64,000 bases of DNA from Escherichia coli O157:H7 (GTDB lineage: Bacteria > Pseudomonadota > Gammaproteobacteria > Enterobacterales > Enterobacteriaceae). Of this stretch, positions 53,301-56,300 are shown in pieces. Location of the stretch: assembly GCF_013167455.1 (NCBI RefSeq), contig NZ_CP038328.1, one strand, 5' to 3'. Every line of letters begins with the position of its first letter. Positions within the stretch are counted from its first letter, which is position 1. The position numbers were made by a program.

Positions 53301-56300
53301 CCCTTGGGCGGTCAAAAGATGAGTTTCAGGCTCTGGCCCGGGCAGAAGATCTCCAGGTTGCTGGCGGGACAGCAATCGTCTACGCAGGTACGCTGGCGGA
53401 TGCATCGGTCAGTGGCGCGACAGGAAGCCTGTCGTTAATGACGCCACGGGATAATGTTACGCCAGTTAAACTCGAAGGGGCGATCCGGATTACCGATAGC
53501 GCGACATTAACTATCGGCAATGGCGTTGATACGACGCTTGCCGACCTGACGGCTGCCAGCCGGGGCAGTGTCTGGCTTAACAGCAATAATTCCTGTGCAG
53601 GCACCAGCAACTGCGAGTATAGAGTAAACAGTTTGCTACTTAACGACGGTAATGTTTATTTATCAGCACAAACAGCAGCGCCTGCCACAACTAACGGTAT
53701 ATACAATACGCTGACAACCAATGAACTTTCCGGTAGCGGTAATTTCTACCTGCATACCAACGTTGCAGGCTCTCGGGGCGATCAACTGGTCGTCAACAAC
53801 AACGCCACTGGTAATTTTAAAATCTTTGTTCAGGATACCGGCGTCAGTCCTCAGTCTGACGACGCGATGACGCTGGTGAAAACAGGGGGAGGGGATGCTT
53901 CGTTTTCGCTGGGCAATACTGGCGGTTTCGTTGATCTTGGGACCTATGAGTATGTCCTGAAAAGCGATGGCAACAGCAACTGGAACCTGACCAATGATGT
54001 CAAACCCAACCCGGATCCCAACCCAAATCCCAACCCAAATCCGAAGCCGGATCCAAAACCAGACCCAAAACCGGATCCGAAACCAGACCCGACTCCCGAG
54101 CCAACGCCGACACCCGTTCCGGAGAAACGCATCACGCCTTCTACCGCAGCCGTACTCAATATGGCAGCAACATTACCGTTGGTATTTGATGCTGAGCTAA
54201 ACAGTATTCGCGAGCGGTTGAACATAATGAAAGCGAGTCCACACAACAATAATGTCTGGGGGGCGACGTATAACACCCGTAATAATGTCACGGCGAGTAT
54301 ACCTTTTATTCGCCAGTTTAATCTGTTCATCAACAAGAACAGCCATTTGAAAAAGATCAGAGTTTCAGACGTGATGAAAATCGCTGATTCTGACTAAGAC
54401 CAACCTCCATTAGCTCTGGCGTTCCCAGCTTCGGTCTTTTTCCTGCTGATTCATTTGTATAGTCATTTCCATCAAAACGGCACAGAGGAAACGACTATGA
54501 ATCAGCACAACACCCGCCTTATTCGTTTACCAGAGGTTCTGCATCGAACTGGATACGGTAAAGCTTGGATCTATCACCTCATCAACCAAAATCGTTTTCC
54601 TTCCCCCGTTAAAATCGGTGCGCGCTCTGTTGCTTTCATTGAAAGTGAAGTAGACGAATGGATTCAATTAACTATCGAAAATTCAAGAAAGCATGTTGCC
54701 TGAAATAAAATGACAGTCTTCTTATTTATGAGGATTAATTCTCAGATTTGTAAAGTTTAAATCTTAAAAAAATCTATATTTAACGTAATTCTTTACGTTT
54801 TTTCTGGCAGAGCTTTTGCTATAAGGCTTAGAGATGGTTTTCTTAATATCGGGTATGGATACAGCCCACTAGCCGTACCTGTTTATTTGACGTCAAATAA
54901 AATTTTTCAAGCCATTAATATATATACCAATTAAACAAGATTCATTGTAAAAAATTTGAATTATTTTGAATTGGAATATATTTAATAAGTGAGAGTGATA
55001 TTAATTTGTTAAGTTTGAGGTGAAAATGGGATATAAAGTAAAGAAATTCATCATGAGTAGTGGAGAGCGAGGATGCCTGATCCTTGATAAAAAAAGTAAT
55101 CTACCAACTTACTATCAAAATCTATTTCTTACTACAGACATAAGAAATAGAGGCGCAACGGCCTCAACGATGGAAATAGTTGCAACTAACTTACTAATTT
55201 TCAGTAATTTCTTGGATGGTAGGGGAATTGATATAATTGAGAGAGTTGAACTTAAAAAATATCTCAGCGTTGCAGAAATAGATGATCTGGTAAGATATGC
55301 GAAACAAAGATTCGACAGACAAAAAATCATAAATATAAAATCGACAAATTATAGGTTTATTGCGAAGAGAACCTTTAGTTATAGAATACACGTTTTTTCA
55401 CGCTACCTTAAGTGGTTATGTGGATTAGTTCATTCGTCAAAGGGGATTCATGCAAAGTATGAAGTAGACGTATTTATTGAAAGTATCAGAGCACATATTC
55501 CAAGAAACAGTTCATTGAATATGAATGAAATATCTGAAAAATCGTTGAATGAAGAAGAGATCAAAGTGCTTTTCCGTCTATTGGAAATTGGCGGGATTGA
55601 AAACCCTTTCCATAAGGAAGTACAGGTCAGGAACAGACTAATATTTACCTTGCTCTTAAATTTAGGTTTAAGGGCTGGAGAGTTGCTCAATCTTAAAATA
55701 GATGATTTTGATCTCAGAGACAACACTTTAAGTGTAGTCAGAAGACATGATTCAAAAGAAGATGGAAGATCTTATCAACCATTAGTAAAGACTGGAGAAA
55801 GGGTTATTCCGTTATCTGATGAGTTAGCCCGTGAAATTTTTGATTACATAAGCAATAGCAGAGAAAAAATGACAAAAAGGAAAAAGCATAATTTCTTATT
55901 TGTGGCTCATTGCACCGGAAAAAACGCAGGAGAACCCTTAAGCATTTCAGCTTATGAGAAGGTGATATCAACACTGAAACGAGCAAGTCCAGAGCTATAT
56001 AATCTTTCAGGCCATAGGTTAAGGCACTCTTGGAATTATATGTATTCTAAAGGAATAGAAGGTGCTGAATTAGAATATAATAGAAGGAAAGATTTAAGGA
56101 ATTATTTAATGGGTTGGTCAAAGGAGTCAATAATGTGTGATAGATACAACTATAAATATATATCGCAACAAGAGAAGGATGTCGTCCTAAAGGTCTATAA
56201 ATCAGTAAGTAAAATAATTAGTGGAGTTTAGTATGGAAAACAAATGTATTGAAAGTGAGCAAATCTTTTTTGCTAAGATGAACAGGTATAGTTTCAAACT

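What the first reader, a model, noticed from the sequence alone, without database searches (positions are those of the whole stretch)
54884..54899. 16-bp perfect palindrome TATTTGACGTCAAATA upstream of the first recombinase
This is a perfect dyad in the 317-bp AT-rich spacer between alpA and recombinase 1, and a candidate operator for AlpA or a recombinase, or a core crossover site.
Basis: seen in the sequence. Interest (0 to 1): 0.3.

Follow-up and report, generated by a model that had tools for sequence, protein, structure and literature searches.

The report
Conserved dyad beside a recombinase site
The palindrome is real and conserved, and it is most likely a protein docking site that sits 2 bp from a previously undescribed 28-bp recombination site of a four-gene "GInt" recombinase module inside an E. 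coli O157:H7 genomic island; it is not an AlpA operator and not the crossover point itself.

Summary
The dyad exists and is longer than reported: a 20-bp perfect palindrome, TTTATTTGACGTCAAATAAA (54882..54901), the longest in the window (0.08 expected by chance).

It lies 134 bp upstream of a ginABCD-type operon that a published census already lists as a GInt.

Across 24 protein-anchored relatives, three recombinase clades each carry their own perfect dyad at the same place: TTTATTTGACGTCAAATAAA, TTTCTTTCACGTGAAAGAAA and CACCTTATATAAGGTG. Both half-sites changed symmetrically between clades.

The dyad does not track AlpA. Identical AlpA proteins pair with different dyads, and diverged AlpA proteins pair with the same dyad. 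It also does not track the downstream 137-aa gene or GinA–C.

Two bp to its left is a 28-bp site, 54852..54879, GGTATGGATAC-AGCCCA-CTAGCCGTACC. Its central 5 nt are hypervariable (25 different spacers), and left and right flanks assort independently across it. This site, not the dyad, is the likely crossover. It is always intact, like a circle junction.

Best reading (confidence about 0.5): the dyad is a symmetric binding site for a module-encoded dimer, tentatively GinD, that assists or regulates recombination. A terminator role is weak for this copy (−4.8 kcal/mol, z −1.2).

The parts
54497..54703 (+). alpA (68 aa, AlpA/HTH_17 family). It is a neighbour of the module and not part of it.
   Evidence: Pfam PF05930 E 8.7e-19. 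RefSeq WP_001071599.1. Homology with the O121 island stops exactly at its stop codon (H109).
54704..54851 (+). AT-rich left flank of the recombination site, conserved with the module from about 54747. Possibly the equivalent of the GInt 'short AT-rich 3' end' in a circularly permuted arrangement. It contains a small hairpin plus T-run (54782..54804, AACGTAA-TTCT-TTACGTT-TTTT) that may terminate alpA.
   Evidence: Homology breakpoints at 54703 and about 54747. About 120 bp of it is shared by clade-1 elements at leuX, thrW and proL. Hairpin energy -5.7 kcal/mol.
54852..54879 (.). 28-bp recombination (core or joint) site with 11-6-11 layout: left arm GGTATGGATAC (54852..54862), spacer AGCCCA (54863..54868, first 5 nt hypervariable), right arm CTAGCCGTACC (54869..54879). 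The arms are 8/11 inverted-symmetric.
   Evidence: The pattern GGTnnnnnTA-N6-AC-TAGnnnnACC fits all 21 protein-anchored loci with at most one mismatch. There are 25 distinct 6-mers in 39 locus occurrences. It is the only clean hypervariable patch in about 8 kb (diversity 0.57 against 0.01 in the flanks). Left and right flank identities are discordant across it. It is always intact.
54882..54901 (.).
   Evidence: Clade-specific perfect variants occur at the same position.
54903..54907 (+). T-run (TTTTT) one base after the dyad. A T-rich run follows the site in most clades, including some without a dyad.
55026..56231 (+). ginA-like tyrosine recombinase (401 aa).
   Evidence: Pfam PF00589 E 2.5e-18. 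35% identical over its full length to GinA of the ssb-inserted GInt on pSD_88. Invariant R216, K255, H330-x-x-R333, Y360/Y374.
56233..57546 (+). ginB-like tyrosine recombinase (437 aa; the ORF opens at 56221).
   Evidence: Pfam PF00589. NCBIfam integrase_1 at 320 bits, below its curated cutoff of 350. 30% identical to pSD_88 GinB.
57543..59174 (+). ginC-like protein (543 aa, no Pfam or NCBIfam hit; RefSeq calls it 'DNA-binding protein' WP_001059531.1).
   Evidence: 36% identical to pSD_88 GinC. Listed as GinC in Additional file 10 of PMC10214605.
59175..59573 (+). ginD-like small protein (132 aa, WP_001052051.1). The model shows an N-terminal four-helix domain followed by one long helix.
59574..60084 (+). 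Right neighbour: a promoter-like block conserved across clades (…CTATTGACA…) and the 137-aa gene E (59671..60084). It is outside the module, because E assorts independently of A-D.

Best explanation
The dyad is a cis-acting, double-stranded DNA recognition element that belongs to the GInt-type recombination module (ginABCD). It is a symmetric binding site for a dimeric protein encoded by that module, tentatively the small auxiliary protein GinD.

It sits 2 bp from the ginA-proximal arm of the module's 28-bp recombination site (54852..54879). From that position the bound dimer would help assemble or orient the recombination complex at the neighbouring crossover site, and it could also modulate transcription entering ginABCD.

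Shown here: the dyad exists; it is conserved; each recombinase clade has its own perfectly symmetric version; it tracks the gin module and not AlpA, gene E or GinA-C; and the adjacent 28-bp site, not the dyad, carries the marks of strand exchange.

Inferred: that a protein binds the dyad, which protein it is, and what binding does.

The 28-bp site itself is best read as an intact joint (attI/attS-like circle-junction form) of a GInt-like unit that is held in the chromosome because the host island is integrated through a different integrase at a tRNA gene.
For: (1) The palindrome is 20 bp and perfect, with 0.08 expected per window.

(2) In loci found through the GinA protein, not through DNA, three clades carry different perfect dyads at the same place, 134-147 bp upstream of ginA. 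Clade 1 has TTTATTTGACGTCAAATAAA, clade 2 has TT(T)CTTTCACGTGAAAGAA(A), and clade 3 has CACCTTATATAAGGTG. Between clades 1 and 2, two positions per half-site changed and both changes are mirrored.

(3) The inner 18 bp are invariant within clades across genera, while the DNA immediately downstream varies.

(4) The central 4 nt (ACGT, ACGT, ATAT) are themselves self-complementary. An RNA hairpin loop does not need this, but a two-fold symmetric duplex site does (read from the sequences).

(5) Discordance tests exclude AlpA and gene E (93% identical between O157 and O169 although their dyads differ).

(6) L020 shares GinA/B/C at 90/88/91% identity with L019 but GinD at only 66%, and it lacks the dyad. 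L023 shares A/B at only about 60% and D at 72%, and it has the same dyad as L019.

(7) The GinD model has a small helical N-terminal domain plus a long helix. The literature reports a C-terminal coiled coil in GinD and Srap, and that GinD is essential for GInt integration and excision (PMC10214605; PMC5385486).

(8) The adjacent 28-bp site has the anatomy of an SE/Tn554-type joint, with imperfect inverted repeats around a 6-bp spacer that changes between events. The distance from crossover to ginA is about 160 bp, as in an ssb-inserted GInt with defined attL and attR.
Against: No binding has been shown.

The putative recognition helix of GinD (RQSLSSH) is identical in clades 1 and 2, whose dyads differ, and the RQSL motif is invariant even in a GInt that has no such dyad.

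The link to GinD rests on one recombinant (L020). There the dyad region and ginD both simply lie outside one exchanged A-C patch, and the difference in D identity is small (66% against 72%).

The dyad is absent from one clade with intact A-D genes (L018, L021, L022) and from L020, whose GinA is 90% identical to clade 3. It is half-degenerate in L011. So it is not essential for keeping the genes intact.

A T-run follows the dyad, and a GInt with defined ends has a genuine terminator in a comparable position.
Confidence: 0.5

Rival explanations
1. The dyad is an intrinsic terminator or insulator. Transcribed from the alpA side, it forms a hairpin followed by a U-run and stops outside transcription from reading across the recombination site into ginABCD.
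For: A T-run follows the dyad in clades 1-3. The clade-2 hairpin folds at -7.8 kcal/mol, z -3.0. An ssb-inserted GInt with defined attL and attR has a strong terminator hairpin (-14 kcal/mol, z -4.0) between attL and ginA. The GInt paper reports transcription entering ginA from outside.
Against: The window's own hairpin is only -4.8 kcal/mol, z -1.2, and 21 of 200 shuffles fold as well. It has a single G-C pair, and the terminator scan does not call it. In clade 3 the U-run starts 6 nt after the stem. The would-be loop is itself palindromic in all three classes, which a hairpin does not need. T-runs also occur in clades with no hairpin. A separate hairpin plus T-run already lies downstream of alpA at 54782..54804.
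Confidence: 0.17
2. The dyad is itself a crossover or core site of a tyrosine recombinase: 7-bp inverted arms around a 6-bp overlap, GACGTC.
For: The 7-6-7 geometry resembles a recombinase core. Identity between O157 and O169 collapses in this neighbourhood.
Against: The centre of the dyad is invariant within clades. The hypervariable patch and the arms that co-vary with recombinase clade lie 14-19 bp to the left. A perfectly symmetric overlap would give no orientation to recombination (general knowledge of tyrosine recombinases). The half-sites are unlike the arms of the 28-bp site.
Confidence: 0.05
3. The dyad is an operator for AlpA, the upstream HTH regulator or excisionase.
For: It lies downstream of alpA, and AlpA-family proteins are DNA-binding regulators.
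Against: Identical AlpA proteins pair with different dyads, and diverged AlpA proteins pair with identical dyads. The alpA-side homology ends at the alpA stop codon in the O121 island.
Confidence: 0.03
4. The dyad acts as a DNA structure (a cruciform, or a hairpin in single-stranded DNA) and not as a protein recognition sequence. For example, it could bias which strand is exchanged, or serve after conjugative transfer of the island.
For: The palindromy is perfect and has no loop. SE elements recombine with strand bias. The host islands carry a relaxase.
Against: Short AT-rich stems are weak. Base-specific invariance of 18 positions within clades is more than a structure would require. No such role is described for GInts in the papers read.
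Confidence: 0.1

Closest known systems
[quoted passage not shown] 2017, PMC5385486)
   Same: The four-gene operon has the same order: catalytic tyrosine recombinase, catalytic tyrosine recombinase, large protein with no detectable integrase domain, small protein. It shows full-length homology of 30-38% to the operon of an ssb-inserted GInt. The window's C and D proteins are listed as GinC and GinD in the published census. An AT-rich segment lies next to the site. The crossover is about 160 bp upstream of ginA. The overlap is variable, as reported for GInt attI.
   Different: Described GInts are flanked by attL and attR, which are short imperfect direct repeats. Here there is a single intact site with two inverted arms, inside an island bounded by tRNA-derived repeats and carrying its own P4-type integrase, AlpA and a relaxase. 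No dyad or inverted-repeat core is described in the GInt papers I could read, and the authors state they found no common feature for self-recognition.
attS joint of strand-biased circularizing integrative elements (SE) and Tn554 (Nonaka et al. 2023, PMC10214605)
   Same: The joint consists of imperfect inverted repeats separated by a 6-bp spacer whose sequence changes with the donor site. It depends on a small auxiliary protein (Srap/TnpC) with a coiled coil.
   Different: The gene order differs (SE is intA-tfp-intB-srap), and SE and GInt proteins form separate clusters. The joint here is found fixed in chromosomes, not only on circles.
Accessory-protein sites next to tyrosine-recombinase core sites (for example Xis, IHF and Fis sites in phage lambda attP/attR; from general knowledge)
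   Same: A protein-binding element lies immediately beside the core on one arm and is specific to the element.
   Different: Those sites are usually direct repeats or asymmetric sites. A perfect 16-20-bp palindrome abutting the core is unusual.
dif/cer/psi Xer sites (11-6-11; from general knowledge)
   Same: The neighbouring site is 28 bp with 11-bp arms around a 6-bp centre. The left arm of some clades (GGTGTACATAA) resembles the XerC arm of dif as I recall it.
   Different: The right arm is unlike the XerD arm. The centre is hypervariable, whereas dif is conserved. The site is linked to its own recombinases.

Membership tests
GInt (ginABCD elements) | Four-gene operon ginA-ginB-ginC-ginD, homologous to described GInt operons | tested here: met
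   A/B/C/D are 35/30/36/38% identical over their full length to the operon of an ssb-inserted GInt on pSD_88. WP_001059531.1 and WP_001052051.1 appear in the GinC-GinD synteny list of PMC10214605.
GInt (ginABCD elements) | GinA and GinB are catalytic tyrosine recombinases; GinC has the fold but an incomplete catalytic set | tested here: inconclusive
   Pfam PF00589 hits A and B but not C. A keeps R, K, HxxR and Y. The catalytic residues of B and C were not mapped rigorously.
GInt (ginABCD elements) | Integrated element flanked by attL and attR, short imperfect direct repeats that are hybrids of attI and attB | tested here: not met
   There is only one site per locus. No second core-like site was found in 46 kb of MS1657 or in other flanks. 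Both arms are always together in 17 metagenomic and 363 E. coli copies.
GInt (ginABCD elements) | Tripartite structure: gin operon, cargo, short AT-rich 3' end | tested here: inconclusive
   An AT-rich 115-160-bp segment lies directly left of the site. This is where the 3' end would lie in a circle junction, but the permuted reading is an inference.
GInt (ginABCD elements) | Excision as a circle and site-specific integration that need all four genes | not testable with these tools
   This needs PCR or genetic assays.
SE (strand-biased circularizing integrative elements) | Gene order intA-tfp-intB-srap | tested here: not met
   The order here is recombinase, recombinase, non-catalytic protein, small protein. 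NCBIfam gives only weak sub-threshold hits to 'gamma-mobile-trio' GmtY.
SE/Tn554-type joint (attS) | Imperfect inverted repeats with a 6-bp spacer that varies between events | tested here: met
   The arms are 8/11 symmetric around a 6-nt spacer. There are 25 distinct spacers. This holds for the neighbouring 28-bp site, not for the dyad.
Intrinsic (Rho-independent) terminator | Stable G+C-rich hairpin immediately followed by a U-run | tested here: not met
   Energy is -4.8 kcal/mol with z -1.2. The stem has one G-C pair. The consensus scan does not call it.
AlpA operator | The site co-varies with, or is constant with, its regulator | tested here: not met
   The same AlpA protein pairs with different dyads and the reverse.
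Tyrosine-recombinase crossover core (for the dyad itself) | Sequence breakpoints or overlap variation map to the centre of the site | tested here: not met
   The variation maps to 54863..54867, not to 54889..54894.

The most novel reading that the evidence does not exclude
The tRNA-integrated mobilizable islands of Enterobacterales carry a still-active GInt circle junction that is trapped in the chromosome, so they have two independent integration systems. The hypervariable 5-nt spacer would then be a molecular record of repeated Gin-mediated integration and excision, or of island-to-island exchange. That process would reshuffle integration modules (int-DUF6387-alpA) against mobilization and defence cargo at a single 28-bp site. 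The clade-specific dyad would be the docking site that makes each Gin system recognise only its own joint.
Probability: 0.25. Interest if true: 0.75.

Novelty: new variant of a known kind. Interest (0 to 1): 0.5.

Why it matters
GInts and their SE and Tn554 relatives move resistance, virulence and anti-phage defence genes, but how their three-to-four-protein recombination machines recognise DNA is unknown. The GInt authors explicitly found no common recognition feature.

This work gives a concrete and compact substrate. It consists of a 28-bp inverted-repeat site with a fast-changing 5-nt centre and, 2 bp away, a clade-specific perfect dyad. Both are conserved across genera and can be tested directly by EMSA, footprinting and recombination assays.

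It also shows that about 7% of complete E. coli genomes, including the O157:H7 lineage, carry the site in an always-intact form inside tRNA islands. That raises the possibility of a second integration system, or a module-exchange system, acting within defence islands.

Tried and rejected
- **Second copy of the dyad or its flank in the window:** none.
- **attR or a second core site:** regex and single-arm searches in a 49-kb MS1657 region and all other flanks found only chance-level matches.
- **Unbiased scan for other hypervariable patches** in the roughly 8-kb conserved block: only the core spacer came out clean; the other candidates were indel edges.
- **Empty site:** the 2014C-3075 leuX island has a replication-initiator module in place of gin, but it is too diverged beyond alpA to define junctions.
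- **D-E intergenic region as a right-hand site:** it holds a conserved promoter-like block and no core-like site.
- **Split sites:** none in 363 E. coli genomes or 17 metagenomic contigs. IMG/VR had no match.
- **Promoter overlap:** the consensus scan finds no plus-strand promoter at the dyad. The TTGACG inside the clade-1 dyad is not conserved in other clades.
- **Imperfect or spaced dyads** in L011, L018 and L020-L022: within the chance range.
- **Known RNA families:** nothing.
- **GinD fold search:** only weak matches.
- **Published GInt att sites** (Pseudomonas and ssb types): short direct repeats, no palindrome.
- **Upstream half-site-like TATTTAACGT** (54777..54786): it does not co-vary with the dyad, so I set it aside.
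Full report
**Observation.** The 16-bp palindrome is at 54884..54899 as reported. The symmetry extends to 20 bp, TTTATTTGACGTCAAATAAA, at 54882..54901. 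It is the longest perfect palindrome in the window. Shuffles give 1.11 palindromes of at least 16 bp but only 0.08 of at least 20 bp per window. There is no other copy with up to 3 mismatches.

**Context.** The window is E. coli O157:H7 chromosome. alpA is 54497..54703 (Pfam AlpA). After a 322-bp spacer with 26% GC comes a tightly packed operon:
- a tyrosine recombinase (55026..56231);
- a second tyrosine recombinase (56233..57546);
- a 543-aa protein with no family hit (57543..59174);
- a 132-aa protein (59175..59573).

This is the ginA-B-C-D order of GInts (PMC5385486) and not the SE order (PMC10214605). All four proteins are full-length homologues (35, 30, 36 and 38% identity) of the operon of a GInt inserted at the ssb stop codon of Salmonella plasmid pSD_88, which carries Avs4 and AbiGi cargo and has recognisable attL and attR. 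The window's C and D proteins are listed as GinC and GinD in the published census. The gene module is therefore already known.

**Host element.** Relatives in other E. coli strains show the order tRNA, P4-type integrase, DUF6387, alpA, ginABCD, 137-aa gene, 222-aa gene, relaxase, then variable defence cargo.
- The MS1657 island is bounded by an 18-bp tRNA-Leu direct repeat 16.6 kb apart.
- The isolate-162 island is bounded by a 21-bp tRNA-Pro repeat. Its own integrase is at the tRNA end, and the DUF6387-alpA-gin block is at the far end.

So the gin module is internal to tRNA-integrated mobilizable islands. The O157 copy is truncated on the right by IS30 and a prophage.

**Conservation and symmetric change of the dyad.** I collected 15 loci from one genome per species through the GinA protein, plus nine E. 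coli loci. Three recombinase clades each carry a different perfect palindrome at the same place, 134-147 bp upstream of ginA.

| Clade | GinA identity to window | Dyad | Found in |
|---|---|---|---|
| 1 | at least 95% | TTTATTTGACGTCAAATAAA | E. coli, Enterobacter, Pantoea, a MAG |
| 2 | 67-69% | TT(T)CTTTCACGTGAAAGAA(A) | E. coli O169 and others, Pantoea, Erwinia, Citrobacter, Kosakonia |
| 3 | 37-38% | CACCTTATATAAGGTG | E. coli O121, Klebsiella indica, Dryocola |

Between clades 1 and 2, two positions per half-site differ and both changes are mirrored. The inner 18 bp are invariant within clades, while the downstream spacer varies. The central 4 nt (ACGT, ACGT, ATAT) are self-complementary in all three classes.

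The dyad is not universal. One clade with intact A-D genes (L018, L021, L022) and also L020, whose GinA is 90% identical to clade 3, show nothing beyond chance. L011 has a degenerate left half.

**What the dyad tracks.**
- **Not AlpA.** The same AlpA protein pairs with clade-1 and clade-2 dyads, another pairs with clade-2 and clade-3 dyads, and AlpA proteins only 74-79% identical pair with the same dyad.
- **Not the 137-aa gene E.** It is 93% identical between O157 and O169, and 88% identical in Klebsiella indica, despite different dyads.
- **Not GinA, B or C.** L020 shares them at 88-91% with L019 but lacks the dyad. L023 shares A and B at only about 60% and has it.
- **GinD is the only compatible candidate.** It is the only module protein for which L019 is closer to L023 (72%) than to L020 (66%).

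**The neighbouring 28-bp site.** Anchoring all loci on a conserved ACTAG revealed GGTATGGATAC-AGCCCA-CTAGCCGTACC at 54852..54879. The arms are 11 bp and 8/11 inverted-symmetric, around a 6-nt spacer. The general form GGTnnnnnTA-N6-AC-TAGnnnnACC fits all 21 loci with at most one mismatch, and the arms co-vary with recombinase clade.

- **Hypervariable centre.** The central 5 nt vary between otherwise near-identical sequences, with 25 distinct 6-mers in 39 locus occurrences. Elements with the same GinA protein and the same flanks can differ in the spacer.
- **Unique in the block.** An unbiased scan of the roughly 8-kb conserved block finds this as the only clean hypervariable patch (0.57 against 0.01).
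- **Flanks assort independently across it.** Window against L005 is 99% left and 77% right. L003 against L016 is 94% left and 86% right, while L003 against other clade-1 loci is 64-85% left and 97-100% right. O157 and O169 are 100% identical up to about 54860 and about 65-70% identical after it.
- **Always intact.** Both arms are together in 17 metagenomic contigs retrieved with the right half only. In 363 E. coli genomes, 360 cover at least 80% of a query spanning the site, with one copy per genome. No second site was found within 46 kb.

This is the anatomy described for the circular joint (attS) of SE and Tn554-type elements, with imperfect inverted repeats around a 6-bp spacer that changes with the donor site. 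It also fits the reported variability of GInt attI. The distance from crossover to ginA is about 160 bp, the same as in the ssb-type GInt.

My reading is that this is an intact joint of a GInt-like unit, kept in the chromosome because the island is integrated elsewhere. A highly specific, always-occupied target cannot be excluded.

**Rival: terminator.** A T-run follows the dyad, and the ssb-type GInt has a strong terminator (-14 kcal/mol, z -4.0) between attL and ginA. However, the window's hairpin is -4.8 kcal/mol with z -1.2. Clade 3 gives -5.8 (z -1.4), and only clade 2 reaches -7.8 (z -3.0). The consensus scan calls neither a terminator nor a plus-strand promoter at the dyad. Rfam finds nothing.

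**Conclusion.** The dyad is a genuine, selected cis element of the gin module, immediately beside its crossover site. It is most probably the symmetric binding site of a module-encoded dimer, tentatively GinD, that assists or regulates recombination. The 'site for a recombinase-module protein' reading survives but is unproven.

The gene module is known. The site anatomy (28-bp joint, hypervariable centre, clade-specific dyad, always-intact state inside tRNA islands) is not described in the papers I could search.

**Caveats.**
- The metagenomic loci were retrieved with a pattern that contains the dyad, so they say nothing about dyad conservation.
- The E. coli counts are dominated by the clonal O157 lineage (299 genomes at 99% identity or more).
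- The comparisons with the dif and lambda systems rest on my own knowledge.

Noticed in passing
window 50327..54397 (junction near 54291/54292): The 1356-aa ORF is a chimera. A deletion fuses the ypjA/ehaD autotransporter gene to the 3' part of the DUF6387 gene. Only 4 of 5,426 complete E. coli genomes match contiguously across this junction; other O157 strains have ypjA and DUF6387 as separate genes.
   Followed up: partly
window 59574..59670 and equivalents in L005-L023: The spacer between ginD and the 137-aa gene holds a promoter-like block conserved across all clades (GATAGGTTTTAgCTATTGACA…TGTCAGGAtGAC…TTGCAAGGATGCATATTATG), with a perfect TTGACA and a small inverted repeat ATAG-N7-CTAT. 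Clade 3 and L020 have GTAAA-N6-TTTAC instead. Gene E assorts independently of ginA-D.
   Followed up: partly
window 54782..54804: A small hairpin plus T-run (AACGTAA-TTCT-TTACGTT-TTTT, -5.7 kcal/mol) lies about 80 bp downstream of alpA and may be its terminator. Overlapping it, TATTTAACGT (54777..54786; TATTTGACGT in MS1657) resembles the left half of the dyad 107 bp away but does not co-vary with it.
   Followed up: partly
window 61499..61684, inside ORF 60480..61778: There are about 31 tandem copies of GCCAGA (a Pro-Glu dipeptide repeat; weak Pfam hit to Trypan_PARP) in a 432-aa ORF. The segment is shared with Enterobacter L009 and Pantoea L012 but absent from other clade-1 islands.
   Followed up: no
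window 63024..63095: Tandem hexamer repeat (TATTTC) of about 12 copies in an intergenic stretch next to the IS30 remnant and prophage junction.
   Followed up: no
window 16338..16355: The second-longest perfect palindrome in the window, GGCCACTCATGAGTGGCC (18 bp).
   Followed up: no
L024 (E. coli 2014C-3075, leuX island) 10199..12293: An island with the same int-DUF6387-alpA module (97% identical up to inside alpA) carries a replication-initiator gene plus a small ORF in place of ginABCD. A 137-aa-size gene, a 222-aa-size gene and a relaxase still follow. This suggests the gin module and a Rep module are alternative cassettes at this position.
   Followed up: partly
L004 (E. coli O121 RM8352) 6639..11303: A clade-3 gin module in decay: ginB is split into 73-aa and 381-aa ORFs, and ginC is truncated at about 307 aa by IS600. 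The 28-bp site and its 16-bp dyad are still intact.
   Followed up: partly
L044 (Salmonella Dublin plasmid pSD_88) 6042..17954: A roughly 11.9-kb GInt inserted at the stop codon of the plasmid ssb gene (attL CCGTTCTAG, attR CCGTTCTAA). It carries the anti-phage genes avs4 and abiGi. Relatives occur on 92 plasmids, mostly in E. coli, Pseudomonas, Citrobacter, Salmonella and Klebsiella.
   Followed up: partly
L025 (WS4437A-1) 18028..18292 versus L026 (isolate 162) 20537..20760: The thrW island of WS4437A-1 ends its first segment with an N-terminally truncated integrase. That remnant is 82% identical to the 3' end of the tRNA-Pro-adjacent integrase of isolate 162, which hints at tandem accretion or rearrangement of related islands.
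   Followed up: no
L018, L021, L022: left arm of the 28-bp site: The left arm GGTGTACATAA matches 9 of 11 positions of the XerC-binding arm of E. coli dif as I recall it (GGTGCGCATAA). The right arm is unlike the XerD arm (the dif sequence is from memory).
   Followed up: no
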